Notes under the pieces: generated by a model
Database searches by the model: none
Seen by the model: only the letters and a program-made list of their open reading frames with translations
Told to the model about the DNA's origin: nothing
Part shown: positions 30,651 to 48,449 of the stretch, piece after piece
How positions within the stretch are numbered: position 1 is the first letter of the stretch
Layout: every line of letters begins with the position of its first letter
Assembly: GCA_009841265.1 (NCBI GenBank)
Contig: VXMB01000009.1
Coordinates: 229,911 to 293,910 of the forward strand
Direction of reading: 5' to 3'
Source of the DNA: Gemmatimonadota bacterium
GTDB lineage: Bacteria; JAAXHH01
Length of the DNA stretch: 64,000 nucleotides
Translations under genes and position numbers: made by a program

Positions 30651-30657
30651 CCTGCGG

Positions 30658-31215: not shown

Positions 31216-31428
31216 GGGCGTTTAATGGTCTCCTCATGGTAATTAAGCGGGGTAGTACGCTCACGAGTCGGGCCGGTTTGCATGCTCACGATAGTTAAAT
31301 CCGACCAGTACGATGCATATATTATGATATGTTATATGTTTCAAATCAAGAAATGTCACGCTGTGGACTTCACGGGACGCCGTCGCGGACATCCGGAACA
31401 TGAGCCTTTGATCGGTATCGAGGTTGCC

Positions 31429-32724: not shown

Positions 32725-32837
32725 CCCGAGTCCTTTCGCAGGTACGGTTTTTCATTTCAAGTGAAGACGCAAGCGAGGGTCAAAATTATAGTCAAACTGG
32801 ATTCTTCAGATGTCGGAGGTGCCCGGTATTGGGGCCT

Positions 32838-35800
32838 TCACTCTAACTTTAACTTGTCGGAAACCTCTGACAGGATTTTGTTCAACTTCTCAACGGTCTC
32901 CGGGTCCGGTGGCGTCTCGCCGCCTAACTCGATGCGAAAGTTGAATCTAATCCCAGACCCTACGGCGGCATTAAGTATGTCCGGCAACACTTCCGACAGG
33001 TCCTGGATGCCACTGGCTTCCAGTTCGGCTTCGGCGGTCAACTGTCCCGCCGGCTTAGGCCGGTATTGACCATCCTGGTCTTCGCGCACATCCGTTCTGT
33101 CCGGTACCTGGAGTGTCACGTGCTGGGCGCCGCTGATATCGCATGGCCACGGGGCGCCTTCGTCGCTGACTTCGATCCATCTCGCCCGCATACCTTCGTC
33201 TATCGCCGTGCGAATGGTGAACCAGGGCAAATTCATACCCGTCTTATGAGACAGCGTGGTGGCGATGGCCAGCGCATTGGTCTTGCCATCCTTCCACGCG
33301 CCGGGTATCGATTCGGCCATCATTTCATTGACAGGTATCCGTTCGGGGGGTGGTCTGAGCGTCGCCGACGAACCGAGCACACCTGCAGGTACGGACTCGC
33401 ACAGGATCGAAGCTGGTCCGGCGGTCAGCCACAGAGTTCCCTGTTCGATGGCCTGTGTTACGGCAATCTCCACGTCGGAGGGTTCGCACTTCGGGATGTC
33501 CAGGGTATCTTCATATCCATCGCGGGGCACGCTCACGGTGTGGCCGCCTGCAAAATAACCATATACGTCCTGGACGCTGATCTCCGAATCTTTCCACAGT
33601 CCTGGGAGGCTCCCTTTTTTGAGGAGTTCCGGGGCGATTTCCGTCAAGGCTGCGTGTTCGGGCAGCAACACCTCGAGACCCGGGTCCCGGAGGACCGGTT
33701 CGTCGACGGTGGTACGCCAGAACGTCTTGCAGGTCTTGTCGGGGCGCGTTACCCGCGCGACCCAGATGCCGTCCAGTACGCCCTGCAAGACCGTTTCCAG
33801 AATCTCCCTGGACCGCAGCATCTTGGGTAGCTTGGGAAATTGTGCGAAGGCACCTACCAGGTCTTTAATTCGCCGGACGTGTTCGCCTTCGCGCCACAGG
33901 TCGTAGGGACCTCCCGGCAGCAAGGCCTCTGAACTGATGGCGGTCTCCTGGATGCGTGCGCGCGGGTCGGCCTTTATAATCGTGAATAGGGGCTCGTCGG
34001 TTACGACGATCTTGAAGGCTTGGACCACGTTTTCTTCGCCGACGGTCACGACGATGGAGTAGGCCTGCCGGATGGCTTCGGGGATCCGCCGCTTCGCCGC
34101 GGCGGTCTCGGTGGAGAGCATCTGCTCTCGGACCGGATCTATGGACTGATCCTTCAGTTGGCTGCGGACCTCTTCCCAGCCCAGGTATTCCCGGACCCGT
34201 GCCCTGGTCGCGTCCAGGCCGTCCCGCGACGGCACGGCGAGGACGGTGGCATTGCGATACACCCGTGGCCGGTTCGCGGCGGTCGTCTCGTCGAGGAATC
34301 GTCTCGCCTCCGCGCTGGGCTTGCCGGACTCCGAGGCGGCCTCTGGATCAAGCACGGCATAGTGGAAATCGCCGTCGTCGGCAACATCGGCGGGCTTTTC
34401 CGGCAGGTTGTGCACTTTTGCGCCGGCCGCGGAAGCGCCGGCAGTAAGCGCCTTCAGCTTGGCGATGTGCTCGACGATCTGGGATTCCACCTGCGCCGGA
34501 GGTACGCGGTTGTTGCAGGCGTCGTGGTGCATCTGGCGCAGGTTGGGCCGATTGCCCAGCCGCCAAGCTCTGGGCAACTCGCGGGTGCCGTCCCGGTTCG
34601 CTGCTGCGGTGGCCACTTCCGATTCGTCTAGGAACCAGGACAACTCCGTCCACCGATACAGCGCCTTCGCCAGTTCGATCCGGTCGGGACTGGCACCACC
34701 GATCAACACGAACAGTTCCCGCGTCAACGCCTTCTGGCCGATCGGCTGGGAACTCAGGAAGACCACGATGACCGCCTGCTCCATCTCCCGGTGGCGCAGC
34801 CCAGTCGTCTCGGCCTGGATTTCCCGCGCCTTGGCGAGTTCTCCTTCGAGGATCGGCCGCCATTCCTGGTGTCTGCCGGTCTCGGTGTCGACGCTGGCGT
34901 AGTTGGCGAGTTCCCCCGCCGCTTCCGCCAGTCCGTTCTGCTCCGGCTCTTTCAGCAGCACGTTGGGGCCGATGAGCGGGCTCGCGTCCCATCCTTCCGC
35001 GTCGCGCAGGGCGATGGCGAAGGTCCGGAGGATGCCGCGGGTCCGCTGGAACCCGTCGAGCTGCGTCCACCGGGTATAGAAGACCTCGGTAAGGTCCGGG
35101 TGGAAGGGGTAGCTGCCCAGATACCGATCTTCCTCTGCAGCCCGCTCCTTGTGGGTCCGCTCATCGATGGCGGCGATATTGCCCACCACCGAAGTGACGT
35201 GGGGGCGGAAGACGCCGGGGTCCCGGATCGATTCGGGCTTGAAGAAGCGGCGGCGCAGCACCTCGGCCACGTCCTCCTTGCTCACCGGACTTGCGTCTTC
35301 CTCCATCTGGCGGCCGAAGACCTCCGAAACGTCGCGCAGGAGTTCGTTGCCGAAGTCGTCGTGCTTCCTCGGATCGGAAGCGAGTAGCGAAGCTACCATG
35401 GCGCAACGGTCCACCTTGACCACCGCCTGGGTAAGATACTGGAAGAAGCTGACCAGGCTCCCGCGTGCCGTCGGATCGGCTTCGACCCGCGTGCGGATGT
35501 ACATGAGCACTTCATCGAGGAGCACGAGCGTCGAAAGTCCCTCCGCCTGGGGCCTGGCCAGGAGCTCCACCATGAGCGGTTCGGCCGGCGGTGTCTCGCG
35601 TTCCGTATCCCGGCCTTCCGCGTGAATGAGTCTGAGCCCCTCGGCACCCACCAGTTGAAAGGCGAGCACGCTCCAAGGGTGCCGAAGCATCCTGATGGAC
35701 CCGTCGGGCGCGGGCGTCTCGACGCCTTTTTCCAGGTCGATCTTGTCGAAACACAGGGCGGCCACGCGCGCTTTCGGAATTCCGGCTCCGATATGCGCTT

Positions 35801-36158
35801 TGAACTCGTGTACAGCCGGCAGATCGGGCAGCCCGTCCGGTTCGTTTACCAGGTGCCGAAGCGCAATGAGCGTATGCGTCTTCCCGCCGCCGTAGTTAAC
35901 GGCGAGTTTCCTATAGGCTTTATCGCTCTGGCCGCTCAGACGGTGAATCACATCCCTGACCAGTTCCCGGAGGTTGTAAGTGGGATGGGTGAGCGCGAAG
36001 AACTCCGCCGGATCCTCGTAAACCCGGCGCCGCCCCTTCTGCATTACCACGTCGAACAGGTCGGCCGCGAACACGGCCAAAGACAATTCGCCCGTCTTCA
36101 GGTCGTCCCGCAACTGCACGACCTCGTGCCAGGGTTTCCAGGAAGGTTTGGTCGTCAT
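32838..36158 (-). CDS. DUF499-type large P-loop ATPase (BrxC/PglY-related) of a BREX-like/Hma-like defense module
   Basis: 1106 aa; Walker A NYGGGKTHT, Walker B VLLDEVLMY; size and position next to a DUF1156 methylase. Confidence 0.6.
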   Translation of the reverse strand: MTTKPSWKPWHEVVQLRDDLKTGELSLAVFAADLFDVVMQKGRRRVYEDPAEFFALTHPTYNLRELVRDVIHRLSGQSDKAYRKLAVNYGGGKTHTLIALRHLVNEPDGLPDLPAVHEFKAHIGAGIPKARVAALCFDKIDLEKGVETPAPDGSIRMLRHPWSVLAFQLVGAEGLRLIHAEGRDTERETPPAEPLMVELLARPQAEGLSTLVLLDEVLMYIRTRVEADPTARGSLVSFFQYLTQAVVKVDRCAMVASLLASDPRKHDDFGNELLRDVSEVFGRQMEEDASPVSKEDVAEVLRRRFFKPESIRDPGVFRPHVTSVVGNIAAIDERTHKERAAEEDRYLGSYPFHPDLTEVFYTRWTQLDGFQRTRGILRTFAIALRDAEGWDASPLIGPNVLLKEPEQNGLAEAAGELANYASVDTETGRHQEWRPILEGELAKAREIQAETTGLRHREMEQAVIVVFLSSQPIGQKALTRELFVLIGGASPDRIELAKALYRWTELSWFLDESEVATAAANRDGTRELPRAWRLGNRPNLRQMHHDACNNRVPPAQVESQIVEHIAKLKALTAGASAAGAKVHNLPEKPADVADDGDFHYAVLDPEAASESGKPSAEARRFLDETTAANRPRVYRNATVLAVPSRDGLDATRARVREYLGWEEVRSQLKDQSIDPVREQMLSTETAAAKRRIPEAIRQAYSIVVTVGEENVVQAFKIVVTDEPLFTIIKADPRARIQETAISSEALLPGGPYDLWREGEHVRRIKDLVGAFAQFPKLPKMLRSREILETVLQGVLDGIWVARVTRPDKTCKTFWRTTVDEPVLRDPGLEVLLPEHAALTEIAPELLKKGSLPGLWKDSEISVQDVYGYFAGGHTVSVPRDGYEDTLDIPKCEPSDVEIAVTQAIEQGTLWLTAGPASILCESVPAGVLGSSATLRPPPERIPVNEMMAESIPGAWKDGKTNALAIATTLSHKTGMNLPWFTIRTAIDEGMRARWIEVSDEGAPWPCDISGAQHVTLQVPDRTDVREDQDGQYRPKPAGQLTAEAELEASGIQDLSEVLPDILNAAVGSGIRFNFRIELGGETPPDPETVEKLNKILSEVSDKLKLE

Positions 36159-36170
36159 ATCATACCTCGT

Positions 36171-36743
36171 TCATGTATTTCGTATCGCGGCTTCGAGGCG
36201 CTGGGCAAGGTTATCGAAATCCTCGGGACACTTCTGCCGAATTGCGTTAATACGGCGGGATGCCTCTTCTGCCAAAGGCTCTCTACCACCGCCGGGCTTG
36301 TCCGATAAGTTGCGCTGGTCGACAAGTGGCTCGAAGTACTGCTCCTTGACCCGTACTTCGGCTCGTAGAGTGTTCCAATTCCAATTTGCGGGTAATTGCA
36401 AGCCCGCGAGAACCCAAGTCTCAAGCTCTTCCCAGGCGTTTTCGGCCAGGAATACCCGGACATCTCCAAACTTCGCTTCAAACTCGTCGAGTCTCTGGCG
36501 CCGTCCTTCCTCGCCATCGCGGTCGACGCACAGGATGAAGATATCCATCATGCCTCTATAACGAGCTACGATTTCCGAGATTCGCTCCATTTTCAATGCT
36601 TCACCAATGCCGCCAAGCCGCGGGTCCTGGCAAACCAGAATACGTGCTCCTGGCCTACCAAGGGATCGAAGAAGTTGACTGAAGATCGGATTCAGAATGT
36701 ATTGGTCCTTACGGTCGTCTTCCGGTATGATGAGAACTCTCAA
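36171..36743 (-). CDS. small Toprim-like partner protein (DUF4276/RloB-like) of the AAA ATPase
   Basis: ORF 36171..36800 overlaps the upstream gene; a TTG at 36743 overlapping the AAA stop (TTGA) gives LRVLIIPEDDRKDQYILNPIF..., resembling DUF4276 N-termini. Confidence 0.35.
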   Translation of the reverse strand: MRVLIIPEDDRKDQYILNPIFSQLLRSLGRPGARILVCQDPRLGGIGEALKMERISEIVARYRGMMDIFILCVDRDGEEGRRQRLDEFEAKFGDVRVFLAENAWEELETWVLAGLQLPANWNWNTLRAEVRVKEQYFEPLVDQRNLSDKPGGGREPLAEEASRRINAIRQKCPEDFDNLAQRLEAAIRNT

Positions 36744-38023
36744 GAACCATCCTCCGCTGCATTGTAGTCTTCGATGAAGAACAGGGCGTCCTCCATCCAA
36801 CCGGATTCATGAAGCCGTCCCAGCCCCTGATCCTGCCGCAACTCCCGCACATTGGGCAATTCGGCAACCGGGCGAATGATTGCCTCGGAAGTGTCTTGAA
36901 GTCGGCAGACTACCGATGTCTTCTCGAAGGTGTTATCGTTCATTACGGTCAACAATGTTGGCGCATGAGTCGTGGTGAGTACCTGAGTACTGTGCTTCGC
37001 GGTTTGCCTTTCAATCAAATCCATCAATAGATTCAGCCGAGCAGGATGAATGCCGTTGTCGATTTCCTCGAAGAAGTAGAGGCCGGCCGGATTTGTACCG
37101 AGCAATGCGGCCAGCATGGCGAGAAAACGTAACGTACCATCTGAAGCGCCATATGCAGACACTCGCCTGTTGTTCGCCTCTCGAAAGACGAGCTGAACCC
37201 GACCGGATACCTCTTCGATCGGGAACTCGAAATCCCGCACGTCCATTGGAGTCAACTTGCGGGTCCATTCGGCCAAAGTCTCTTTGCGTTTCGGGTCGTC
37301 GCAGATTTCTCGCAACACAGTCGGTAGGTTCTCACCGCCATTGCCCAGTATGGTCTGACCTGGGAAAGCAGCTTGGCGCATTCGATCAGGTACAAGGTCC
37401 AGAAAACGCATGTTTGCAAAAACTTTAATGGTTTTTTCGGCGAGTTCCTTGTGGCTCTTTACGATACGTGGATGTTCTATAAGCTGTGTCAGTGCAGGCT
37501 GATCCGGCCTCACCGAGATTTTGTGACCGAGTCGTTTCTGCGCCCCGGTTTTTTCCATTCGCAGGAGCAAGTGCGTATCATCCCCCTGCCTTCTAACAGG
37601 GTCATCCCGGTCCGGATGACTGGTGTAGATCGTCCGCCAGTATTTCTTCAACACGCGTTTTTTTAGTTCTTCTTTTGTAACCCGGAACATACCAGGTGTT
37701 TTTTTATTGTCACGACTGACTTCGATCAAGTAATCGAAGTCAGTCGATTCGACCTGCAGCGAAAACGCGGATTCGCCAAACTGGATGATTTCATCGGTGC
37801 CACCACGAATCGGTTCCCATTCACGTTGACCGCCGGAGCCATATTTACCACCGATGATTTCCGCCAGCGTATAGGCCCGGCCAATACCGTGCAGGAAACG
37901 GGAGGCGTCTCGGATATTGCTCTTGCCGCTAGCGTTCGCGCCTACTATTACGGTGAACGGGCCAACCCGTAGTGTCTCGTCGGCGAAGTTCTTGAAATTG
38001 ACGAGTCTGAGCGAGGTGATCAT
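36740..38023 (-). CDS. SMC/RecF-like ABC-type AAA ATPase (OLD/PARIS-AriA-like defense ATPase)
   Basis: 427 aa; MITSLRLVNFKNF...VIVGANASGKSNI N-terminus, Walker B/D-loop near the C-terminus (LYFFEEIDNGIHP). Confidence 0.65.
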   Translation of the reverse strand: MITSLRLVNFKNFADETLRVGPFTVIVGANASGKSNIRDASRFLHGIGRAYTLAEIIGGKYGSGGQREWEPIRGGTDEIIQFGESAFSLQVESTDFDYLIEVSRDNKKTPGMFRVTKEELKKRVLKKYWRTIYTSHPDRDDPVRRQGDDTHLLLRMEKTGAQKRLGHKISVRPDQPALTQLIEHPRIVKSHKELAEKTIKVFANMRFLDLVPDRMRQAAFPGQTILGNGGENLPTVLREICDDPKRKETLAEWTRKLTPMDVRDFEFPIEEVSGRVQLVFREANNRRVSAYGASDGTLRFLAMLAALLGTNPAGLYFFEEIDNGIHPARLNLLMDLIERQTAKHSTQVLTTTHAPTLLTVMNDNTFEKTSVVCRLQDTSEAIIRPVAELPNVRELRQDQGLGRLHESGWMEDALFFIEDYNAAEDGS

Positions 38024-41000
38024 GGCGTATCTCCGAACTGGAATCTCTTCTGTCGTATAGGGGAAACATCGCCTTGCGCGGCCACGTGATTGCTCAGCGC
38101 TTCGAGAACGGACCTCTCGTCGGAACCGGCCTCGGACAGTTCAATAAGGGCTTGAAGGATCTGATTGAACAAGATGTTTCGTTGAAGGCCCTGCGTACTG
38201 AGATAGTCGTTGACCTTTACCTGGTCGCCTGCCCGCCACGTGTGCATGAGTCTGTGAATTTGGTCAATGAGTGGCGCGGGGCTGCCTCCCTGGCTTTCGC
38301 GGCCGAGATTCCGTCCCTGCCGCCGGTGCCAGGGCTTCAGCTTCACCTTGGCGCCGCCTCCGGTGTCAACAACCCCGGTTACGGTCTCATCCGCATCACT
38401 AGTCGGTTCGTCGCTTTCGGCCCCTTCATTTTCCGCCTCCTCGTCAGCCCCGTGCCTGCCGGTTCGGGTAAGGAGATCATGCTGATTCATCAGGGCCGTG
38501 TCGGATAGGTTGCAGGAGAGCGCGTAGAGGATGCACGCGCCAACAGGCGCCTCGTCCATGCCGAAATCATGGCGGTGCAGCAGGTAGTAGGTGGTCACAT
38601 CGTCGAGTCCGCTGATGGTATCTTCGCCATCGTGGGTCAGTACGCGACCGACGACGAAATCGACGACCATGCGCCGCACTTCGCGGAGGAATTCCGAGAC
38701 TGACATCAACTGGTCGGGGTCGTTCGCCTTCTTGATCGCCGGATGCTTGCTGAAGGCCTCCAGGGCCGGACCGGTCGCGGCCCAGACGAAATCCGGCCCT
38801 CGAATGCCGGCGTCCCAGAAATCGTGGAGTTGTCGGGAAATGTTACTCTTCATTTCGCCGAGAACAACATTATCCCAACCAGGACGGGCGGCGGAGCGTT
38901 TCTTACAGACTATCCAGATGGATGAAGCAAGGGCGGCGGAACTTACAGACCGCAACCGCACCTGTCTTTCAGTCTGGATGGGCCAAGAACCAGCAACGAC
39001 AAATCCAGCCCGAATAAGAGCTGCGACAAGGGTCTCCCATGCAGCCGGGCTCTTGCTTGCGAATACTATGACCATCCGCCCTTGTGGCCGGAGAGCATCA
39101 CAACATTTCTCGAAAGCATGAGCCATACCGTCTTCGTAATTTTGCTTGGAGAGGTTTCTGTTTCCACCAAAACGACTTGCATCATCAATCAACTCTCCGT
39201 TGCCAGCTTCGGCATCCCACTTCGGTCCGAGTTCTGATCTGAATGCGCCTTCTAGTCCACTCGAAACGCTGTGCATCAACCGGCGCAGCCAGACATAGAA
39301 AAAATCCATCAGATCAGAATACGGTATTGCATCGTAATAGGGAGGATCCGTGACAATGAGATCGTACTGCCCAATTTGCTCTTCGATTGCGGATTGCAGT
39401 TCGACGCATGGAACCGGCGCGTTTTTCACAGCACCTTGAAGGTGATCAAAAACTCTGGCCACCCACTCATTAGCACTCTCTAATCCACCGGTTGCTTTCG
39501 TGAACGGGCAGACCTCAGCGATATCCCATACGATTGGCAATGCAAACCGACTGAATTGTTGTCCCATATGTTCGTTGCTATTTACCCAGATACATCCACC
39601 ACTACCATAGGCCGTTTGTCGGTTCATGATACATGTAAGAAAGCCTATAATTGCTTCGGCGACGCCAGGGTCATGTATCGCTTCGAGTTCTGACTTCGCT
39701 TCAGTGATGGATTGGATAAGGGCGCATTGTGTCGCCAGTTGCCGATTCGTAAACAACTTCCGCCATGTGTTGAAACCATAGAGAGGTACACGGAATCCAA
39801 GCGCTTCCTTACTTGGAAGGGGATCGTTCGGCAATCCGAACGGGATTTCCGAGTATAACTCCTGAAGTCGTTCTTCGGATACTTCCGCCACTGCTCGTTC
39901 ATGTTCCGTGGGCAGCCGGTATTCTTTGCCATTCGGTCCGTCGACCACAACGGCCGTCATTACGGCATCCAATCGGCCGGCACGGCCCTCGAACCGGACA
40001 TCTTCCATGGTCGTGATCATACCGCAGGACGGGCACGTTGCCCCGGTGCGCGACATGGTACCTGCGCCGATGCGCTTGTCGTGTTCCCGTCGCTGGGCCA
40101 CGTTGCCTCCAACCTGCGGCACATCATTTTGCACGCTGAAAACGACACCATCCAAGTCGGTCCTGACTTTCATCGTCAACAACACCCGTTTACGGACCTT
40201 CTTGCACAACCAACGTGTTTTAAGCAGAGGCAACGTGGTTCTGCAGTACTTGCAGGTCACGGTCCGGGCCCAGAGGTAGGCGACCGTCGGTTTGGCTACC
40301 CACCTTGGATTACCCGGGTATTTCAGATACATCGAATCGAAATCGGCATTCAATGGGCCAACGTCCGTCATGCCGTCAGCGTTCGGTTCAAGCAGCAAGA
40401 GCCTCTCAGGGGGGCCGTTTGAGTTACCAAGCGGTTCTTGCAACTTCTCGTCCACGATAGGTGGGGGCCCATCAGTCGCTTCTCCGTCAAGCCGCGTCCA
40501 TTCGGCATAGGTCGGGTAGAACGAAGCCAGTCGCTTACGCGCTCTTGCCAGAACCCATCGGCCCCAGGCACGGGTGTGCCAGGCAAAATCTGCTTCGATC
40601 AGATGATCGTCTCTCGGCAGGGCGTCGATCTGGAGGCCAGTCTGATCACCCTGTTCAAACCGCTTTAGAAACCTCTTGAGGTGGACTCCCTTGAGCTCCT
40701 TTGACTTCAGGTACGCCTCCATGAACTCGCGGTCCTTCAGCGCGAATGCGGGCAACTGTCCGGTTTGACCGGACAGTCTTTGGGGGTATTCGAGGGTACA
40801 CTTAAGGATGAACCAGGCCACCGGATTGATGTCCATGGCCGTAACGTCACAACCCAGGCGCATGGCTTCAAGCGGTATGGCACCTCCGCCCGCGAAGGGA
40901 TCGAGCACTTTGGGCATCCGTCCGCCGTACGCCTTGCGGATCTCCGAGCGGAACCATTCGAGATTCGAGCCGTTCTCGCGTCCCCAATGGAGTATGCCTC

Positions 41001-41292: not shown

Positions 41293-41350
41293 CCCTGTTC
41301 TCCGTCTTCCTCTTGCTTAAAAACTACGTTAGTCAAAGAAGGATACTTAG

Positions 41351-43816
41351 TTAGCTCAATCGGGGTTTCTTCAATGGATTTGGCTGATAACTGAGACCTA
41401 GCGCGACGAACAGTTTTTCCCGTAGCCGGTAGTTGATTTCATGTGTGTTCGCATAGTGTTGTAGCCAGAGAGAAAGCAGTCTCTTGGGGACTGTGTTTCG
41501 ATTTCCTTCAAATTTACTAAATGTATCTGTAATCTGTTTAACGCTCTGTGTGCTAAGGCTTTCCGAAGTTTCCAATATGAACAATATACGGAGTAGGTCA
41601 TACGCTGGAGTGCCATTCTCTCGACACATGGCATCTACTACTTTTTGTAACTCTGGTTTACGAATGGAGATGAGGATCTTCCTTAACAAAGATCCTATGC
41701 TTACGAACACGAGAGTACGGATTTGCCTCCTTAAAAAGTTTTGTATCTTCTGCTTGTCGTCCTCTGGAATGTTAACGCTTTTTAGCTCTTCGATGAAATA
41801 TCCTTCGAAGCTCAGAATGGTATCGCGGTCAGTGACTATGTTGATTAAACGCAACCCGGCATCAGCAACGAAGGAAACGACTTCTTTGAGTTTTTCCCGA
41901 GGAAGGCTGCCATACTTGTTTCTCAGTATCTGACCCAAAATCTCCATGTTCTTCAATGCACGATAGAAATCATTTAGAGCATCCTCCTCAGAACCATCAT
42001 TGGGAGGTAGTTCTTCTAATTCGGCTTCGTTTTCGTCTCGCTGTTCTCTTTCTATTCTACGCTCTTCCTCAACCGGTCGATTAGACAGGATCCTCTCCGG
42101 GAGTTCTTCAAGTATACCTTCCAACAATCTGGTTTCATCTGTACTTAATGTAGCGGGTGAAATACTGTCGAATGCGTATGCGCTGTGTATCATGGTGTTG
42201 ATTAATTCATCGTTCTGCGTGTGATGAATCGTGAAAATCAGTATGTACGCATTATCATGTACATAACTCTTCCTGGCTAGCTCTTCAATCAGCCCTTTCT
42301 TTACTTCGTAGTTCCTCGCGAAGTAATGTCCGAGAAGAAAGTAGTAAATGAAAGGATGGTTGAACTCATAGCCGCCGCTGCGCATTCGGATTATTGAAGA
42401 ATCCTTCCTCATCAAACGATTAACGACACTGTCTTTGACGATAAAATCCTGCTGATAGCGTTTAAGGAATTGCTCATATTGATCCTGAGAGCATTTACTT
42501 TGATCAAATACCTCAAAGGCGAAGTGGCTGAGAAAATTCAGCGCAGAATCGATATCTTCTTTGCTTACTCCAATGTTGATGAGTTGGGCTGTAATCAGAG
42601 CTTGATAACAATGTCCGTAAGCGGTGATCTGTAAACTTTGGGGCATAAACGCTTCGAATGTTTGGAGAATAGATAAGATATAGAACGGATAACGTGGGAC
42701 AATTCTGTTATGGAGAATAATGGAATTCAGTTGATCTTCTATCTGGTCTATCTTCCCGTGGGTGATAGACAACTCTTGGTCTTTTGTGTTGCTTAGGCCG
42801 ATCCATTTCTTGATCAGGATCTCTTGATTAACATGCCCCAATGATCTTAAACTCAACAACTCGAAACCGGCAAGTCTGCCCTCGTCCTTGAAATAGACAA
42901 GAAAGTCATCCTCCGAGGTCACAATGAGAATGCGCTCGAAATAGTCCTTTGCGAAGTCAACAAAATTCAAATGCGAATTATGGCTAAAGTCATCAATGAT
43001 TAGCAGTTTTGCTGGTTTACCTTTCCAATGAGAGAAACTTCCATTGAACTGTTCTTTAAACACTTCCTTTATGAGTCGTTCGTGATTTATCGGGCTCCTG
43101 ATGTCATTACCCGATATGAGTATGGCCGGGATACCTTTGTCGATTTCACTAAGAAGCAGTTTGCGACAAAATACGGTTTTTCCACTCCGGTCATCTCCCT
43201 TCAGAACGAGACGCTTGTTCTTCTTCCATAAATCTTCAAACCCATTAACACCACGATCGCTGAATTCGGCTTTGACATTTGGGAAAACAAATAGATCATC
43301 CAGCCTTATATTCTCTTTATGTTGTGATATGAATTCAACTTGGGTTAAGTCATCCCTGAATTCTGTTTTTAGCCGGAAAGGTATGTGGGTTACGATCTTT
43401 CTGATATTCTCGTATATATCATGAAGTGCATCATCCTCATTTTCCCATTTGGTAATGGGCTTCCCGTCTGTCGGTATCGCAAGTAGGCCTGATATACCTT
43501 CGAGATCTTTCCAAGCGCAAGGTCGTGCGATTACTGGTACTACTACAAGGGCATCGTTCTTCGCTTTTAGGTCGAGCGCAATACGCAACTCCCTCATACA
43601 TTCGGGGGATGCGAGGAAATCAGGACTTAACACCAACAATATCAAGTCGGCCGTTTCCAGATTACTATCAACTTCGTCATGGATCGCTTGTCCCGGCAGT
43701 ATTTTCCGATCATACCATTCGTCGATAAGTCCCTCGGCTTTTAAAAGGGCAAGGTGCTTTTCAATCCCTTCGCGTAGATGATCGTCCTTATGTGAATAAC
43801 TATAAACAAGATTCAT
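41351..43816 (-). CDS. TIR-domain STAND/NACHT-like NTPase (Avs/bNACHT-like antiviral sensor)
   Basis: 821 aa; N-terminal TIR (VYSYSHKDD...DLILLVLSPDFLASPECMREL), Walker A GDDRSGKT, Walker B KLLIIDDF, helical C-terminus; markedly lower G+C than its flanks. Confidence 0.7.
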   Translation of the reverse strand: MNLVYSYSHKDDHLREGIEKHLALLKAEGLIDEWYDRKILPGQAIHDEVDSNLETADLILLVLSPDFLASPECMRELRIALDLKAKNDALVVVPVIARPCAWKDLEGISGLLAIPTDGKPITKWENEDDALHDIYENIRKIVTHIPFRLKTEFRDDLTQVEFISQHKENIRLDDLFVFPNVKAEFSDRGVNGFEDLWKKNKRLVLKGDDRSGKTVFCRKLLLSEIDKGIPAILISGNDIRSPINHERLIKEVFKEQFNGSFSHWKGKPAKLLIIDDFSHNSHLNFVDFAKDYFERILIVTSEDDFLVYFKDEGRLAGFELLSLRSLGHVNQEILIKKWIGLSNTKDQELSITHGKIDQIEDQLNSIILHNRIVPRYPFYILSILQTFEAFMPQSLQITAYGHCYQALITAQLINIGVSKEDIDSALNFLSHFAFEVFDQSKCSQDQYEQFLKRYQQDFIVKDSVVNRLMRKDSSIIRMRSGGYEFNHPFIYYFLLGHYFARNYEVKKGLIEELARKSYVHDNAYILIFTIHHTQNDELINTMIHSAYAFDSISPATLSTDETRLLEGILEELPERILSNRPVEEERRIEREQRDENEAELEELPPNDGSEEDALNDFYRALKNMEILGQILRNKYGSLPREKLKEVVSFVADAGLRLINIVTDRDTILSFEGYFIEELKSVNIPEDDKQKIQNFLRRQIRTLVFVSIGSLLRKILISIRKPELQKVVDAMCRENGTPAYDLLRILFILETSESLSTQSVKQITDTFSKFEGNRNTVPKRLLSLWLQHYANTHEINYRLREKLFVALGLSYQPNPLKKPRLS

Positions 43817-43957
43817 GACTTCTTACTCCTCATCAGTTTTAAGTGTTAAAAGGAGAATCTTCAGAATCCTATGTTAGGTTTTCAAACTACCGCCTATCTC
43901 ACCCCACATGTCCTTTATCGCTTGAACATTCAGCCAATGATCGTGTTTCCGGCCGCG

Positions 43958-44491
43958 CTACCAATTGAGTCGATTACTATAAGTATACTGCGACGGTTCG
44001 AATCGACCGTAATGCACAAACACGATTATCCTGACGCACCCGAAAACGATTTCGTGCAGAAACTCCACTCTAACCAAAGGCAGATTACGACTTAGAGGTT
44101 CTTCGATGAGGAAGTAACGCCAGTCGAAAGAACCATTGAAATCATCTTCTCGTTCGTTTGAATCGCCGTCCAGATTCGCTAAGAAGGCTTCCAGTGCATT
44201 GTATGGAAACCTTCCTCCAATCGACGCCTTGTAATCGTTATAGTTCTTGCGAAGCATTTCTTGGTCTTCCGGCTCAAGCAAATCTAAAAGGATAGTCAGA
44301 GTATATTTGCGTGGTACTGTCTTCCCGCGTACATACAGAAGCGCCTTAATTGACGATTCAACTAGGAAATAGCCAGCAACCACGTAACCCCATGCCTGCG
44401 CTACCTCGTGGCTAGGAATCAAATCAGGTTTCAAGGGACACTTCTCGTACTTTTCCTTCTCCTTTTTCAGGGCTGAATCCAGCCATTTCAT
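43958..44491 (-). CDS. hypothetical small protein (low-GC, co-located with the TIR-STAND gene)
   Basis: 177 aa; no motif recognised; same low-GC composition as the TIR gene. Confidence 0.35.
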   Translation of the reverse strand: MKWLDSALKKEKEKYEKCPLKPDLIPSHEVAQAWGYVVAGYFLVESSIKALLYVRGKTVPRKYTLTILLDLLEPEDQEMLRKNYNDYKASIGGRFPYNALEAFLANLDGDSNEREDDFNGSFDWRYFLIEEPLSRNLPLVRVEFLHEIVFGCVRIIVFVHYGRFEPSQYTYSNRLNW

Positions 44492-44531
44492 TATCCTTGG
44501 TGGGTTATTGAAACCAACTTTTGTTTCGCCA

Positions 44532-47500
44532 TCATGATAGCGTTCCGGCCTCTTCGGCGGCCTCCATGAGTACCGATGGAGTAATGGTGTAAGCTATCGA
44601 CTCCCGGTCGCGCATGATTAACCTGGCAAAGGGGTCGCGGATCCTGACTAGGCGTGGCCGGGGTGTGGCGCAGTCGAAGACGACATAAAGCCAATACCGG
44701 TCCCTGAGGTTACAGGCCTTCCACCATTCGTTTTCGCTCATTTCGATGGCGCCTGTACCTGCCCGGCCCTTGACTTCGATGGCCCGTTCTTCCCCGTCAA
44801 AGCTGGTACCTGCAGCACTAAGACCCGCTGGACGCCGCGACCTCAGGTCGAATCCCGGCCAGTCGGGCAGCCCTACCCGGCGTGCGAGTTCGGGCGTCGA
44901 AACGTCTTCCACCACGGCGCCGAAGCGTTCTTCATAGGCGGTGGCAACGTATACGGCGATGCGCTCGACGTCGGCGTCAAATTGCTCGACCACCTCCGTA
45001 TCCCGGGCCGGTACGACGAGGGCGTGTGCCAGGAGTTCCACCTCGCCCGCGCGGACGTTTTCCGCTTCTGCCTGCAATGTCGTCAGCCGTCGGTTGCGCA
45101 TCGCGGCTAAACTGCGCTGGTGAGCCTTTATCTCGGACAGGTCCGCCTGCGCACGCGGGTCGCCTTCGCGGGCCTTCCTGGAGACTCGGGCGCGGGTCTC
45201 CGCCAGTTCGGCGTTCCGGAGGTCGAATCCGTGGTTGATGAACTCGAGCCGACCGGGCAGATCGTCCAGTATCCGCTGACGGTGCGCTTGCTCGAGGTTT
45301 TCTGCGACTTCCTTTTGTGCGTAGGCGTTGGCCTCGGGCGCCATCCGATTGGCCAGTGCGGCGAGAGGGATCCGACTCGGCGGGAAACCCGGAGCGCCCC
45401 GCAACAGGAGAAGGTGCTCTACCGGCGATTCTTCGACCGTTCCATCTTTGGTCTGGCGCAGACCTACGAGGCGGGTTTCGACGTTCTTCGGATGCTCGCG
45501 GCCTTCTAACGTCTCCTCGTCGACCAGGACACCCGGGGTCGCATGCGGACGGTCCGAACGGTTATTGACTGTGACGAGTGCGAGATGGTAGAGATAGGGA
45601 TCCTCGACCTTCGGATCGACGAAGACAGCGCCCCGGAGTGCATCGTTGCCGAACCTGTTCAGGATGGAAGCCGCGAGCCGGTCATAGACCGGTTCACCGG
45701 GATGAAGCCAGATCGCTTCGGTTGCGTCATCGGGTTTGTATACGGTCAGCTTCTCTCGGGTTTCAGGCGGGTGGAGTTCCATCGCCGGCAGCAGCGGATC
45801 GAGTGCCCGGGGACGGTCCGGCAGGAAGGAAAAGAAACCGCCGGGGTCGCCTTCTATACGGAGACCTAGCAAAGGGGTCGCCTTCTCCACGAATCGACGG
45901 ACGTATCCCGGAAGGAGCCGACGGTAGTTTTCTTGTTCCGTCTCCTCGTTAAGCCGATCGAGGCTTTGGCGGACGTCGCCTCCTGCCCCGAAGAGTGCGC
46001 GTTCTCTTTCGCCTAGTGCCCGGACCTGTCCTTCGGTAAGTTTGCCTTCCAACTGTTGGACGGGGGCGTCCGGATCGCTCCCTGTAACGGCCTGTTCGAG
46101 ATAGTCCCTGAACGATACGCCCTCGAAGAGGCGTCCGATTACGTCGAATACTTTGTCTGAATCCAGTTCCCTGCGCATGGCTTCGAGCTTATCCAACAAC
46201 GTACTCATCACGCGCCCTTCCCGGGTTCTTCCAGCGACCATATTAACGATGACGACGGGATCGTGTTGCTGGCCATAGCGATGGATGCGGCCCATCCTCT
46301 GCTCGAGCCGAGCCGGGTTCCAGGGTATATCATAGTTGACCATCAGCCAGCAGAATTGGAGGTTGATGCCCTCGCCTGCGGCGTCGGTCGCCACCAGGTA
46401 ACCGGCCCCGCCCACGTCGGCGGTCTTCCTGAAGAAGGCGACCTGCTGTTCCCGCTCCCGGTACGGCATGCCGCCGTGGATTTGCGCCACCTGTCCGGTG
46501 AAGCCTAGTCCCTCCAACCGCCTGACCAGGAACGTGGCCGTATCGCGGTGCTCCGTGAAGATGATGAACTTCTCATCGACGTATTTCGAATCCCCGAGGA
46601 CCTGTCGAAGCGTTTCAAATTTGGATTCCCTGCCGGAATCGAAGAGTGCGCGCGCTTTGCGAAGGAGGCCGTCTACCTTCAGACGCTCTGCCTCCAGTTC
46701 GGCCAGGTTGGCCGCCACCGTTCCGCCCATCGCTCCGTCCTCGAAGTATTCGTGCTTCTCACTGCCGTCCCTCGTCGAAGTTTCTTCGTCGGCCGTATGC
46801 GTCTCGAAGACGTCGTCCAGTTCCCTGTCCAATTTGCGCTGGTTCCGTTGCAGTTGGTCTTCGGTCAGCCGCCCGGCCCGGATGTCCTGGATCAATCCTT
46901 CGAGCTTTTTTAATCGCCTCTCGAAAGAACGGAGGAGCGCATAGGTCGAACTGGCGAGACGGCGCTGGAAGACGCTCATCGCAAGGCGCACGGCTGATCG
47001 ATTCAGATATTGAGCGCGGTTGTAGTAGTCTCGAATGTAATCGCTCGTTTCGTCGTAGAGTTCCTGCTCGCCGCCAGGTACTTTGTCGAGTTCGTAACTC
47101 AGGGTATCGCATTGCCGCTGAGGATACAGGGGCGTTCCGTCGAAGCGGACCATCTCCTCTTTTGTGCGTCGGATGAAATGTCGCTGCCGGGCTTCGTTCG
47201 GGAATCTCTCGAAGGCATCCTGTGTCGACAGGGAATCCGGATCCAGCAAACGCCAGAGGCAATAGTAGGGAAAGTCCTTACCCATGTGCGGTGTCGCCGT
47301 CAGCAACAACAGGTGTCGGGTAGACCAGTACAGTTTCCAGGAGTCGTCGTGTGCCCCGGCCCCGGCCACCGTCTCTGCCAGTTTATAACGGTCTGTCTTC
47401 CTTATGCGCAGGTCCGGTTCCCGGTTGGCGGAGAGCTTGTGGGCTTCGTCGAAGACGACCAGGTCATACGGTTCGGTTGTAGTTTCCCGAAGCCGTCCGA

Positions 47501-48203
47501 ACGTCCGCTCGCCTGCCAGCGTGTCAATGCTGACGATGATCAGATCGCTCTCCGGACCAGTAAAGGGATTGCCGTCGCGCGCGTCGGCGCCCGTCAGGAT
47601 GTGGAACCGCAGCCGGAACAACTTGCTCATCTCTCTCTCCCAGTTCCCGACCAGTCCCGCGGGTGGTACGATTAGGATGCGGCGTATGAGCCGACGGGAC
47701 AGCATCTCGCGGATGTACAGCCCCGTCATAATTGTCTTGCCCGCACCTGCGTCGTCGGCCAGCAGGAATCGAAGCGGCTGCTGCTTGAGCATGTGCTCGT
47801 AGACAGCGATTCGTTGATGGGGAAGCGGATCTATGAGTGAAGTTTCCGTCGCGAAAGCCGTGTTGAAAAGGTGACCGTAAGCCAGGCGATGGGCTTCGGC
47901 GACAGCGGAAACCGCATTCGGGTCGGCGGAGAAATCCAGAGCGTGGTAGGCAGACGCGGACTCTTCCTCCGATACCTTCGGGACGCCAAGCAACTCCCGC
48001 CTCGACTGGTTGTCGAGTTCGACGATGCGCTGCCAGGCGAGGTTGTTGGGACGGGACTGTCCGTTCTCCCACCGGTTGACGGTGGCGAAGGAGACGCCGA
48101 CGAGGTCGGCGAATTGCTCTTGCGTAAGCCCCCTGACGTTCCTGGAGTCTTTGATCCTTCGTGAGTAGTCGTCTGGCACTACCGCTGATTCAACTGATGA
48201 CAT
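44532..48203 (-). CDS. HTH(XRE)-SNF2/DEAH-family helicase with C-terminal DUF3883-like domain
   Basis: 1223 aa; N-terminal HTH (LTQEQFADLVGVSFATVNRWENG), motif I LADDAGAGKT, motif II VVFDEAHKL, helicase-C motifs (TATPHMG, QRMGRIHRYGQ), C-terminal EWWKACNLRDRYWLYVV. Confidence 0.75.
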   Translation of the reverse strand: MSSVESAVVPDDYSRRIKDSRNVRGLTQEQFADLVGVSFATVNRWENGQSRPNNLAWQRIVELDNQSRRELLGVPKVSEEESASAYHALDFSADPNAVSAVAEAHRLAYGHLFNTAFATETSLIDPLPHQRIAVYEHMLKQQPLRFLLADDAGAGKTIMTGLYIREMLSRRLIRRILIVPPAGLVGNWEREMSKLFRLRFHILTGADARDGNPFTGPESDLIIVSIDTLAGERTFGRLRETTTEPYDLVVFDEAHKLSANREPDLRIRKTDRYKLAETVAGAGAHDDSWKLYWSTRHLLLLTATPHMGKDFPYYCLWRLLDPDSLSTQDAFERFPNEARQRHFIRRTKEEMVRFDGTPLYPQRQCDTLSYELDKVPGGEQELYDETSDYIRDYYNRAQYLNRSAVRLAMSVFQRRLASSTYALLRSFERRLKKLEGLIQDIRAGRLTEDQLQRNQRKLDRELDDVFETHTADEETSTRDGSEKHEYFEDGAMGGTVAANLAELEAERLKVDGLLRKARALFDSGRESKFETLRQVLGDSKYVDEKFIIFTEHRDTATFLVRRLEGLGFTGQVAQIHGGMPYREREQQVAFFRKTADVGGAGYLVATDAAGEGINLQFCWLMVNYDIPWNPARLEQRMGRIHRYGQQHDPVVIVNMVAGRTREGRVMSTLLDKLEAMRRELDSDKVFDVIGRLFEGVSFRDYLEQAVTGSDPDAPVQQLEGKLTEGQVRALGERERALFGAGGDVRQSLDRLNEETEQENYRRLLPGYVRRFVEKATPLLGLRIEGDPGGFFSFLPDRPRALDPLLPAMELHPPETREKLTVYKPDDATEAIWLHPGEPVYDRLAASILNRFGNDALRGAVFVDPKVEDPYLYHLALVTVNNRSDRPHATPGVLVDEETLEGREHPKNVETRLVGLRQTKDGTVEESPVEHLLLLRGAPGFPPSRIPLAALANRMAPEANAYAQKEVAENLEQAHRQRILDDLPGRLEFINHGFDLRNAELAETRARVSRKAREGDPRAQADLSEIKAHQRSLAAMRNRRLTTLQAEAENVRAGEVELLAHALVVPARDTEVVEQFDADVERIAVYVATAYEERFGAVVEDVSTPELARRVGLPDWPGFDLRSRRPAGLSAAGTSFDGEERAIEVKGRAGTGAIEMSENEWWKACNLRDRYWLYVVFDCATPRPRLVRIRDPFARLIMRDRESIAYTITPSVLMEAAEEAGTLS

Positions 48204-48449
48204 GCTGATTCCGTCCGTTTGATGACATGCTGATTCCGTCTATTCGGTGCGCATCCACCTAATTCGGATTTAGTTAAGATACACTATAGTCGTGGAATGT
48301 CAAGATATATCGCGTGGAATCGTATGGGGGGTATAACAAATGTTATATTGGAGGAGTTAAGCGCGGGTATGATTAGGCATTAATGGCGGTATTAAATCTT
48401 GGTTTTGAACAGGCTTTAGATGATGTTTGGGCGGATATTGTGAGGAGGT

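What the first reader, a model, noticed from the sequence alone, without database searches (positions are those of the whole stretch)
32838..48203. Defense island: BREX-like DUF499 ATPase / DUF1156 methylase / SNF2 helicase triad interrupted by two nested defense modules
All genes are on the minus strand. They run: helicase (HTH + DEAH/SNF2 + DUF3883-like); a low-GC TIR-STAND NTPase plus 177-aa ORF; DUF1156 MTase with DPPY; SMC-like AAA ATPase plus a small Toprim-like partner; DUF499 P-loop ATPase. From memory, the DUF499/DUF1156/helicase combination has been predicted from defense-island genomics as a BREX/Pgl-like system (sometimes called Hma). Here it is split at two points by other putative defense modules, each with distinct (lower) G+C, suggesting successive insertions into a defense hotspot. 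The island sits immediately next to the RiPP cluster.
Basis: partly seen in the sequence, partly recalled or inferred. Interest (0 to 1): 0.7.

Follow-up and report, generated by a model that had tools for sequence, protein, structure and literature searches.

The report
Hma defence operon with embedded modules
This is a three-gene Hma (BREX-related) anti-phage operon with two smaller defence modules sitting between its genes, an arrangement already published as typical for Hma, so it is a clear but ordinary example.

Summary
Seven minus-strand genes fill 32838-48203. They are HmaA (Snf2 helicase with a PD-(D/E)xK nuclease), a 177-aa HEPN-like ORF, a low-GC TIR-STAND NTPase, HmaB (DUF1156 m6A methylase), an AAA_21/ABC ATPase, a 190-aa Toprim-like partner, and HmaC (DUF499 ATPase). 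PADLOC assigns HmaA/B/C at E = 1e-170, 4e-108 and 5e-74.

Three orthologous loci beside the same halogenase/ABC-transporter genes carry different cargo in the same gaps:
- CBASS plus an OLD nuclease;
- three tandem ABC-ATPase modules;
- the same TIR-STAND, broken by an IS.

The ATPase/partner pair also occurs alone elsewhere. In 80 related loci the gene order is fixed. The HmaA-HmaB gap is empty in 1 of 73 loci and the HmaB-HmaC gap in 7 of 66.

One nuance: the ATPase pair is translationally coupled into the operon and recurs in about 40% of clade loci.

This is published biology:
- Hma and its embedded cargo (Payne et al. 2024, citing their 2021 discovery);
- tests in Halomonas (Liu 2024);
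- renaming as Type-1 BREX-related systems (NAR 2026).

The small additions are hmaB-end remnants beside cargo in related loci, which suggest recombinational cassette exchange, and a hypervariable HmaB segment. Interest is low to moderate. This is a new member of a known kind.

The parts
44532..48203 (-). hmaA: N-terminal XRE-type HTH, Snf2/DEAH translocase and C-terminal NOV_C PD-(D/E)xK nuclease (1223 aa)
   Evidence: PADLOC HmaA 1.6e-170. Pfam HTH_3, SNF2-rel_dom, Helicase_C and NOV_C. DEAH at aa 252 and nuclease residues D1119, E1143-V-K1145, matching the D/ExK residues mutated in Halomonas HmaA.
48276..48303 (-). Best sigma-70-like promoter match (TTGACA-16-TATCTT), about 70 nt upstream of hmaA
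   Evidence: The total number of matches in the region is not above shuffles, so only its position and its conservation with L077 speak for it.
48332..48347 (-). Perfect palindrome TATAACA-TT-TGTTATA upstream of the -35 hexamer; candidate operator
   Evidence: Read from the sequence. Conserved in the orthologous locus L077. The link to the HmaA HTH is inference only.
43958..44491 (-). orf177: shortened HEPN-like protein, possibly a degenerate remnant
41351..43816 (-). TIR-STAND NTPase (821 aa), a single-gene embedded module with GC 42%
   Evidence: TIR_2 4.7e-14; PADLOC ThsB-like TIR 3.9e-41 (aa 2-144) and PDC-S60 6.8e-45 (aa 142-811); NCBIfam DS8_antiphage 1.4e-119 over aa 142-807. 95.3% nucleotide identity to the copy in the same slot of L002.
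38020..41292 (-). hmaB: DUF1156 N6-adenine methyltransferase (1090 aa)
   Evidence: PADLOC HmaB 4.2e-108; Pfam DUF1156 7.6e-17; motif I at aa 129 and DPPY at aa 649.
39368..39736 (-). Hypervariable segment of hmaB (aa ~520-640), a probable target-recognition region
   Evidence: No nucleotide alignment to L001, L002 or L077 here. Protein identity is 18-50% here against 80-100% in the flanks. It lies just before DPPY, within the motif I to DPPY interval; the NAR 2026 paper describes a nested TRD inside the MTase core of BR-MTases.
36740..38023 (-). ABC-type (AAA_21/SMC-head-like) ATPase of the embedded two-gene module (427 aa)
   Evidence: AAA_21 3.5e-30; PADLOC PDC-M07A 5.2e-62, HEC-01A 1e-36, AriA 6e-32. 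PDB matches are SMC heads. Its ATG overlaps the hmaB stop (ATGA).
36171..36743 (-). 190-aa partner of the ATPase, a putative Toprim-like nuclease
32838..36158 (-). hmaC: DUF499 STAND/ORC-like ATPase (1106 aa)
   Evidence: PADLOC HmaC 5.2e-74; Pfam DUF499 1.6e-17. Walker A GGGKT and Walker B LVLLDE. More than 4000 homologs, many 71-91% identical.

Best explanation
The region is one co-oriented, probably co-transcribed operon. It encodes an Hma system (also called a Type-1 DUF499-centred BREX-related system).

Proposed working of the core (inferred from the family):
- HmaB methylates host adenines at a motif set by its variable recognition segment.
- HmaC, an ORC/STAND-like ATPase, scans or senses DNA.
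- HmaA, a Snf2 translocase fused to a PD-(D/E)xK nickase, attacks unmodified invading DNA.

Two autonomous defence modules sit in the two inter-gene slots that are almost always occupied in this Hma clade.

(i) Between hmaA and hmaB lies a low-GC TIR-STAND NTPase. By analogy with Avs-like proteins, its C-terminal part would sense a phage cue and its TIR domain would destroy NAD+. A shortened HEPN-like ORF accompanies it.

(ii) Between hmaB and hmaC lies an ABC ATPase plus a small Toprim-like partner. This is a HEC-01/PDC-M07/PARIS-like pair and is translationally coupled to the hma genes. It plausibly acts as a back-up, abortive-type nuclease layer.

Cargo in these slots turns over between genomes. 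The most likely route is recombination that uses the conserved hma gene ends as anchors.

Shown here: gene identities, catalytic motifs, operon coupling, variability of cargo at orthologous loci, and stand-alone occurrence of the pair. Inferred: every biochemical activity, co-transcription, and the exchange mechanism.
For: Core identity:
- PADLOC HmaA/B/C at 1.6e-170, 4.2e-108 and 5.2e-74, with intact catalytic motifs.
- Family function comes from Liu 2024 (HmaA helicase and NOV_C nickase needed against T4) and from the Type-1 BR model.

Embedding:
- The order HmaA, gap, HmaB, gap, HmaC holds in every one of 80 related loci in which at least two of the three genes were detected.
- The A-B gap is under 300 bp in 1 of 73 loci (median 4.2 kb). 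The B-C gap is under 300 bp in 7 of 66 (median 2.1 kb).
- Orthologous loci L001, L002 and L077, beside the same halogenase and C39-ABC genes, hold different cargo: CBASS cyclase + Cap15 + OLD-like ATPase-Toprim; three tandem AAA_21 modules; IS elements.

Autonomy of the modules:
- The ATPase+partner pair is found alone between housekeeping genes in L086/L087 and in L090.
- Relatives of the STAND body occur on plasmids with TIR or metallophosphoesterase heads.

Foreign origin:
- There is a GC3 gradient, and TIR-STAND stays at 39-42% GC inside 57-59% GC hmaB contexts in other phyla.
- TIR-STAND is 95.3% identical in nucleotides to L002, against 90.9% for the flanking halogenase gene and 83-86% for the hma genes.
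- The window's ATPase and partner are closest to a Latescibacterota locus (84% and 83%), not to the loci with the closest Hma proteins.

Coupling: ATGA and TTGA overlaps and a 12-nt spacer link hmaB, the ATPase, the partner and hmaC.

Exchange mechanism: duplicated hmaB 3' ends sit immediately upstream of AAA_21 genes in L001, L002 and L026, and hmaB 5' remnants lie in the A-B gap of six loci.

Published precedent: 62.7-66.5% of Hma systems contain embedded genes, most often ABC ATPases with Toprim, NERD or PIN partners.
Against: - No experiment bears on this locus. In Halomonas, HmaA alone protected, and HmaB over-expression did not change T4 infectivity. So the restriction-modification logic of Hma is still unproven.
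- HEC-01, the nearest tested relative of the ATPase pair, showed no protection in the published assays.
- The window itself has no repeats, hma remnants, integrase or tRNA at the junctions. The insertion history is inferred only from other loci.
- ATPase divergence correlates with HmaC divergence (Mantel rho 0.65, similar to 0.685 for HmaB-HmaC). This fits long co-residence as well as it fits exchange.
- The background divergence to L002 rests on only 506 nt of one gene.
Confidence: 0.75

Rival explanations
1. The ATPase+partner pair is not cargo. It is an integral accessory subunit of this Hma subtype, working with HmaB and HmaC, for example as a guard that fires when phage anti-restriction proteins block Hma. 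Only the TIR-STAND is a true insertion.
For: - Translational coupling at both ends.
- Homologs at 49-84% (ATPase) and 58-83% (partner) identity in the same slot in about 27 of 66 loci across many phyla.
- Mantel correlation with HmaC of 0.65.
- Liu 2024 report an AAA_21 gene plus an unannotated gene between hmaB and hmaC in all Halomonas hma loci.
- The NAR 2026 paper reports OLD-ABC plus nuclease pairs in at least 1242 taxa with BREX or BR systems and draws the PARIS analogy.
Against: - The pair occurs alone, away from any Hma, in L086/L087 and L090.
- It is absent from the orthologous locus L077, and hmaB-hmaC are adjacent in 7 loci.
- The window's allele is phylogenetically discordant with its Hma genes.
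- Several different AAA_21 modules stack in tandem in L001 and L002.
Confidence: 0.3
2. All seven genes form one ancestral composite system that has always been interleaved in this way.
For: - All genes are co-oriented and tightly spaced.
- L002 shows the same gene content in the A-B slot.
Against: - Cargo differs among orthologous loci.
- TIR-STAND homologs appear in only 3 of 80 related loci.
- GC3 ranges from 45% to 77% within the operon.
- Compact versions without cargo exist.
Confidence: 0.03
3. The whole segment is a recently integrated mobile island (ICE, prophage remnant or transposon) that carries several unrelated defence genes. It would be an ordinary defence island rather than an embedded architecture.
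For: - Every island gene has lower GC3 than the backbone.
- IS3-family and IS256-family elements are present in the L002 version.
- Liu 2024 report integrases near 19% of hma loci.
Against: - No integrase, tRNA or terminal repeats were found at the island itself: the seven island genes and their immediate flanks show no integrase domain, the only tRNA lies about 23 kb away, and no repeats flank the island.
- The Hma triad sits at the same chromosomal position beside the halogenase/ABC genes in four related genomes.
- Cargo lies strictly between hma genes, not beside them.
Confidence: 0.07

Closest known systems
Hma system (HmaA/HmaB/HmaC; discovered by Payne et al. 2021 as cited in Payne et al. 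2024; tested by Liu et al. 2024), also called the Type-1 DUF499-centred BREX-related (BR) system (NAR 2026, PMC12839542)
   Same: - The same three proteins in the same order and on the same strand.
- HmaA carries a Snf2 core plus a C-terminal NOV_C PD-(D/E)xK nuclease with D/ExK intact.
- HmaB is a DUF1156 N6-MTase with a TRD-like variable insert.
- HmaC is a canonical DUF499 protein without a HEPN fusion.
   Different: - HmaA has an extra N-terminal XRE-type HTH that the PADLOC HmaA profile does not cover (profile alignment starts at aa 78).
- This clade is loaded with cargo more often than the published average: 72 of 73 and 59 of 66 gaps are occupied, against about 63-67% of systems.
Hma-embedded candidates and 'guilt-by-embedding' (Payne et al. 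2024 bioRxiv): HEC-01 (ABC ATPase + Toprim) and PDC-M07
   Same: - An ABC ATPase with a small partner sits between hma genes in the same orientation.
- The ATPase scores best on PDC-M07A (5e-62), then on HEC-01A (1e-36).
- Members of the partner family weakly hit HEC-01B.
   Different: - The window's own partner hits no PADLOC or Pfam model.
- It is not DUF4276 by sequence.
PARIS (AriA ABC ATPase + AriB Toprim nuclease)
   Same: A two-gene ABC ATPase plus a small acidic-motif partner. The ATPase hits the AriA model at 6e-32. The proposed role as a back-up when restriction is inhibited comes from the NAR 2026 paper.
   Different: There is no AriB match. The ATPase fits other models better. No trigger is known.
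Avs/STAND single-gene defences; PADLOC PDC-S60; NCBIfam DS8_antiphage; Thoeris ThsB TIR
   Same: The STAND body matches PDC-S60 (6.8e-45) and DS8_antiphage (1.4e-119). The N-terminal TIR matches the ThsB model (3.9e-41).
   Different: - The score is below the NCBIfam cutoff (400 against 790 bits).
- The first 184 to 302 profile positions of those families are replaced by a TIR domain here, an effector swap.
- No ThsA is present, so this is not Thoeris.
- No solved relative was found by sequence.
Type 3 BREX and DISARM
   Same: The helicase hits BrxHI/BrxHII models (4.8e-91 and 3.7e-71) and DrmD (7e-97). The methylase weakly hits PglX. The logic of ATPase, MTase and helicase is shared.
   Different: None of the seven genes matches PglZ, BrxL/BrxA/BrxB, DrmB or DrmC; the only DrmA match is the helicase itself, weaker than its HmaA and DrmD matches. 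The DrmD score is below the NCBIfam cutoff (326 against 610 bits).

Membership tests
Hma / Type-1 BR system | Snf2-family helicase carrying a C-terminal NOV_C PD-(D/E)xK nuclease (HmaA) | tested here: met
   PADLOC HmaA 1.6e-170 over aa 78-1208; Pfam SNF2-rel_dom, Helicase_C and NOV_C; DEAH at 252; D1119, E1143, K1145.
Hma / Type-1 BR system | DUF1156-type N6-adenine methyltransferase (HmaB) | tested here: met
   PADLOC HmaB 4.2e-108; DUF1156 7.6e-17; motif I VLDPFAGGG and DPPY.
Hma / Type-1 BR system | DUF499 ATPase (HmaC) with intact Walker motifs | tested here: met
   PADLOC HmaC 5.2e-74; DUF499 1.6e-17; GGGKT and LVLLDE.
Hma / Type-1 BR system | The three genes on one strand in the order A-B-C, with embedded genes allowed | tested here: met
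   The same order holds in every one of 80 related loci in which at least two of the three genes were detected.
Hma / Type-1 BR system | Anti-phage activity and self-methylation | not testable with these tools
   Only HmaA of Halomonas has been tested. No methylome data are available for this organism.
Canonical BREX (types 1-6) | PglZ phosphatase together with BrxC | tested here: not met
   None of the seven proteins matches a PglZ or BrxC (DUF6079) model. The flanking genes are metabolic.
Type-2 BR (PLD-helicase / DUF1156 / DUF499 / DUF3780) | HKD (phospholipase-D) nuclease at the helicase N-terminus, and DUF3780 | tested here: not met
   NCBIfam phospholipD_antiphage, DUF1156_antiphage and DUF499_antiphage score far below their cutoffs (138 against 1100, 158 against 1000, 88 against 1200 bits). 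The nuclease here is a C-terminal NOV_C.
DISARM | DrmA, DrmB and DrmC together with DrmD or DrmMI | tested here: not met
   The only matches are those of the helicase itself: DrmD-like (326 bits, cutoff 610) and a weaker DrmA-model hit (8.4e-61). No separate DrmA gene and no DrmB or DrmC are present.
PARIS | AriA ATPase plus AriB Toprim nuclease | tested here: not met
   The ATPase hits AriA at 6e-32 but fits PDC-M07A better (5e-62). The partner has no AriB hit.
HEC-01 / PDC-M07 (ABC ATPase + Toprim-like partner) | A-component ATPase | tested here: met
   PDC-M07A 5.2e-62; HEC-01A 1e-36.
HEC-01 / PDC-M07 (ABC ATPase + Toprim-like partner) | B-component with a Toprim fold and metal-binding acidic residues | tested here: inconclusive
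   - The window protein hits no model.
- 21 of 46 family members hit HEC-01B weakly, best E = 7.6e-5.
- Invariant E8 and D74-x-D76 follow beta strands, as in Toprim.
- hhalign to DUF4276 gives 2.9% probability.
Thoeris | ThsB TIR protein together with a ThsA effector | tested here: not met
   The TIR domain hits the ThsB model (3.9e-41), but it is fused to a STAND NTPase and no ThsA is present.
PDC-S60 / DS8_antiphage STAND proteins | Full-length match including the family's N-terminal domain | tested here: not met
   Only aa 142-811 match (profile positions 185-891 and 303-993). The NCBIfam score is 400 bits against a cutoff of 790. The N-terminus is a TIR domain instead.
HEPN superfamily (orf177) | HEPN four-helix fold with an Rx4-6H motif | tested here: inconclusive
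   - Pfam HEPN E = 0.0065, below the gathering score.
- No clear Rx4-6H motif was found.
- The window copy is truncated and has Tyr at a position that is His in at least 90% of homologs.

The most novel reading that the evidence does not exclude
The conserved ends of the hma genes may act as recombination anchors. On this reading the Hma operon is an integron-like scaffold in which defence cassettes are swapped between genomes, here across at least ten phyla whose record titles are typical of marine-sponge symbionts.

Evidence in hand:
- Duplicated hmaB 3' ends sit directly upstream of AAA_21 genes, and hmaB 5' or hmaA 3' remnants lie inside the gaps of related loci.
- The window's ATPase pair is nearest to a Latescibacterota allele, while its Hma genes are nearest to its own lineage.
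- TIR-STAND is more similar between two genomes than the flanking chromosomal gene is.

The published embedding papers read here do not propose an exchange mechanism.
Probability: 0.35. Interest if true: 0.5.

Novelty: new member of a known kind. Interest (0 to 1): 0.25.

Why it matters
It gives a clean, fully intact example of the 'embedded defence' architecture in an uncultured Gemmatimonadota genome. The cargo combination, an effector-swapped TIR-STAND plus a PDC-M07/HEC-01-like pair, is untested, so the locus is a reasonable source of constructs for functional work.

Two observations from the comparative data could help explain how embedded cargo is acquired and how Hma specificity diversifies:
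- remnants of hma gene ends beside cargo in related loci;
- a 120-aa hypervariable block in HmaB that differs among otherwise 80-100% identical orthologs.

Neither observation changes the current picture of these systems.

Tried and rejected
- Insertion scars in the window: self-BLAST, tBLASTn of the Hma proteins against the window, and a repeat search found no hma remnants, flanking direct repeats or TSDs. The window has no tRNA near the island and no integrase.
- Rfam found nothing in 31000-50000.
- Terminator and promoter scans were not above shuffles.
- Partner against DUF4276: BLASTP gave nothing significant and hhalign gave 2.9% probability.
- Fold search against afdb50 was unavailable.
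- PDB sequence searches found no relatives for TIR-STAND or HmaC.
- PADLOC found nothing for orf177 or its full-length homologs.
- A literature search for the origin of NCBIfam 'DS8' found nothing.
- Considered and rejected as family assignments: canonical BREX, DISARM, Type-2 BR, PARIS and Thoeris (see the membership tests).
- Considered and rejected as readings: one ancestral seven-gene system, and an ICE-type island.

Full report
**Observation**

The interval 32838-48203 is filled by seven minus-strand ORFs. Profile searches give the following.

- 44532-48203 (1223 aa): HTH_3 + SNF2-rel_dom + Helicase_C + NOV_C. PADLOC HmaA E = 1.6e-170.
- 43958-44491 (177 aa): only a weak HEPN hit.
- 41351-43816 (821 aa): TIR_2, a ThsB-like TIR (aa 2-144) and a STAND body. 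The body matches PADLOC PDC-S60 (6.8e-45) and NCBIfam DS8_antiphage (1.4e-119, below cutoff).
- 38020-41292 (1090 aa): DUF1156. PADLOC HmaB 4.2e-108.
- 36740-38023 (427 aa): AAA_21/SMC_N. PADLOC PDC-M07A 5.2e-62.
- A small downstream ORF.
- 32838-36158 (1106 aa): DUF499. PADLOC HmaC 5.2e-74.

Catalytic motifs are intact:
- HmaA has DEAH and D1119/E1143-V-K1145.
- HmaB has VLDPFAGGG and DPPY.
- HmaC has GGGKT and LVLLDE.
- The ATPase has GANASGKS.

The composition claim holds. GC3 is 79-84% in backbone genes and falls to 77% (HmaC), 71% (HmaA), 63% (HmaB), 58% (ATPase), 56% (partner), 50% (orf177) and 45.5% (TIR-STAND).

I corrected the small partner to 36171-36743. Its TTG start overlaps the ATPase stop (TTGA) and lies behind a GGAGGA Shine-Dalgarno. 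This 190-aa product is identical to an NCBI protein from a Gemmatimonadetes MAG.

The hmaB stop and the ATPase start overlap (ATGA). Only 12 nt separate the partner from hmaC. So hmaB, the ATPase, the partner and hmaC are tightly coupled.

**What it is**

The triad is an Hma system. The literature held here shows that this is established.

- Liu et al. 2024 (PMC11232893) showed that Halomonas HmaA protects E. coli against T4 through its helicase and its NOV_C nickase. They also reported that about 66.5% of hma loci contain inserted genes. All Halomonas loci carry an AAA_21 gene plus an unannotated gene between hmaB and hmaC, and variable systems (Septu, PARIS, Ppl) between hmaA and hmaB.
- Payne et al. 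2024 (bioRxiv 10.1101/2024.01.29.577857) found embedded genes in 62.7% of 1485 Hma systems. The commonest were ABC ATPases with Toprim, NERD or PIN partners. They used this 'guilt-by-embedding' to define the HEC (Hma-embedded candidate) and PDC families.
- A 2026 NAR paper (PMC12839542) renames Hma as the Type-1 DUF499-centred BREX-related system. It documents OLD-ABC plus nuclease pairs inside such loci.

The window's helicase has the C-terminal PD-(D/E)xK nuclease that defines Type-1. The Type-2 (PLD) models score far below cutoff.

**Testing 'nested insertions' against 'one ancestral system'**

A scan of one genome per species with HmaB returned 80 loci. I mapped the seven window proteins onto these loci and onto L001.

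- The order HmaA, gap, HmaB, gap, HmaC holds in every locus in which at least two of the three genes were detected.
- The A-B gap is under 300 bp in only 1 of 73 loci (median 4.2 kb).
- The B-C gap is under 300 bp in 7 of 66 loci (median 2.1 kb).

Three loci are orthologous to the window, because they lie beside the same Trp-halogenase and C39-peptidase ABC-transporter genes. Their cargo differs.

- L077 carries a CBASS cyclase, a Cap15 effector and an OLD-like ATPase-Toprim between hmaA and hmaB. It has no ATPase pair between hmaB and hmaC, and it has an AAA_21/DUF4276 pair after hmaC.
- L001 and L002 carry three tandem AAA_21 modules between hmaB and hmaC.
- L002 carries the same TIR-STAND in the same slot. 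There it is split by an IS256-family transposase with a 9-bp target duplication (GATCAACTG). An IS3-family element sits next to it.

TIR-STAND homologs also occupy the A-B slot in two Poribacteria loci. There they keep 39-40% GC next to hmaB genes of about 59% GC.

The ATPase+partner pair occurs on its own in housekeeping neighbourhoods (L086/L087 and L090). Distant relatives of the STAND body sit on plasmids with TIR or metallophosphoesterase heads.

**Nuances**

The ATPase pair is a recurrent resident. Homologs (ATPase 49-84%, partner 58-83% identical) occupy the B-C slot in about 27 loci from many phyla. Their divergence correlates with that of HmaC (Mantel rho 0.65, against 0.685 for HmaB-HmaC).

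Yet the window's own pair is closest to a Latescibacterota locus (84% and 83%). Its Hma proteins are closest to L001, L002 and L077, whose pairs are much more divergent or absent.

The TIR-STAND gene is 95.3% identical in nucleotides to the L002 copy. The figures are 90.9% for 506 nt of the flanking halogenase gene and 83-86% for the hma genes.

Both patterns point to exchange of cargo between already resident Hma operons. In related loci I found fossil junctions:
- duplicated hmaB 3' ends, including the ATGA overlap, immediately upstream of AAA_21 genes in L001, L002 and L026;
- hmaB 5' remnants in the A-B gap of six loci.

The window itself has no such scars.

**The two poorly annotated small proteins**

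*The partner.* Its family has 2295 homologs and no Pfam domain.
- Invariant residues are E8, D9, D74-x-D76, E105 and E108, placed after beta strands.
- The AF2 model has pLDDT 89.
- 21 of 46 family members weakly hit PADLOC HEC-01B.
- hhalign to DUF4276 is not significant.

'Toprim-like' is therefore plausible but unproven.

*orf177.* It belongs to a family of 496 proteins that are mostly about 287 aa.
- The window copy lacks both ends and has Tyr at a nearly invariant His.
- One full-length homolog follows a Type ISP restriction enzyme in an unrelated genome.
- Its nucleotide identity to L002 is 72%, against 95% for TIR-STAND. So it is a separate evolutionary unit, and in the window it may be degenerate.

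**Mechanism**

This section is inferred from the families.
- HmaB marks self DNA. Its 120-aa block (aa ~520-640) is 18-50% identical among orthologs that are otherwise 80-100% identical. That fits a swappable recognition domain.
- HmaC senses or scans.
- HmaA translocates and nicks unmodified DNA.
- The ABC ATPase pair and the TIR-STAND add abortive-type layers. All are probably expressed from one promoter upstream of hmaA.

None of this has been tested for this locus. Even for Hma, the role of methylation is unproven.

**Verdict**

The biology is already published. The locus is a new member of a known kind, and interest is low to moderate.

Noticed in passing
window 48195-48244: A 25-nt tandem duplication (92% identical copies) covers the Shine-Dalgarno and ATG of hmaA. 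It creates an upstream out-of-frame ATG and a 12-codon mini-ORF (MSSNGRNQHVIS) that ends over the true start. The orthologous locus L077 has a single copy.
   Followed up: partly
window 48332-48347: A perfect palindrome, TATAACA-TT-TGTTATA, lies about 30 nt upstream of the best -35 hexamer and is conserved in L077. HmaA in this clade carries an N-terminal XRE-type HTH that the PADLOC HmaA profile does not cover. Autoregulation is therefore a testable idea.
   Followed up: partly
L002-L081 (record titles): The closest HmaB relatives (50-78% identity) come from Poribacteria, Latescibacterota, Dehalococcoidia, Caldilineaceae, Binatia, Entotheonella, Spirochaetia and others. From my own knowledge, these lineages are typical of marine-sponge microbiomes. 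This suggests wide horizontal spread of this Hma clade within one habitat.
   Followed up: partly
L001 4424-4567; L002 13845-13950; L026 14398-14637; L008 504-653; L014 6299-6376; L017 7968-8069; L070 3908-4382; L071 7696-7788; L076 7530-7895; L016 22738-22914: Fragments of hmaB 3' ends, hmaB 5' ends and hmaA 3' ends lie next to embedded cargo or downstream of hmaC in related loci. They look like fossil recombination junctions.
   Followed up: partly
L002 7227-8558: An IS256/Mutator-family transposase is inserted in the TIR-STAND gene with a 9-bp target-site duplication (GATCAACTG). An IS3-family (rve) element lies between hmaA and the orf177 homolog. The window's copies are intact.
   Followed up: yes
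window 39368-39736 (HmaB aa ~520-640); also HmaC aa ~1000-1080 and HmaA aa ~880-920: Short hypervariable blocks sit inside otherwise 80-100% identical orthologs. The HmaB block lies just before DPPY and is probably the target-recognition region.
   Followed up: partly
L001 13432-17037; L077 17715-19525: There is a third cargo slot, downstream of hmaC. It holds an AAA_21 + DUF4276 pair (plus a Fic protein in L001) before the halogenase gene. This slot is empty in the window and in L002.
   Followed up: partly
L082 6606-10864: A full-length (287 aa) homolog of orf177 lies 39 nt downstream of a Type ISP restriction-modification enzyme in an unrelated genome. This unannotated HEPN-like family may be an accessory of several RM-like systems.
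   Followed up: partly
L083, L084, L085: Short-read assemblies that carry the identical partner gene all break inside the AAA_21 gene, at the hmaB side. This would fit strain-level heterogeneity at this slot.
   Followed up: no
L078 10001-14585; L026 10001-14637; L065 and L081: In several related loci the HmaB match is split or 1.4 kb longer than the gene. This suggests insertions or frameshifts inside hmaB itself.
   Followed up: no
window 25489-32724: The neighbouring cluster comprises a Trp-halogenase-like flavoprotein, a 185-aa unannotated protein, a C39-peptidase ABC exporter and a second ABC transporter. It is syntenic in L001, L077 and L083. I did not analyse it further.
   Followed up: no
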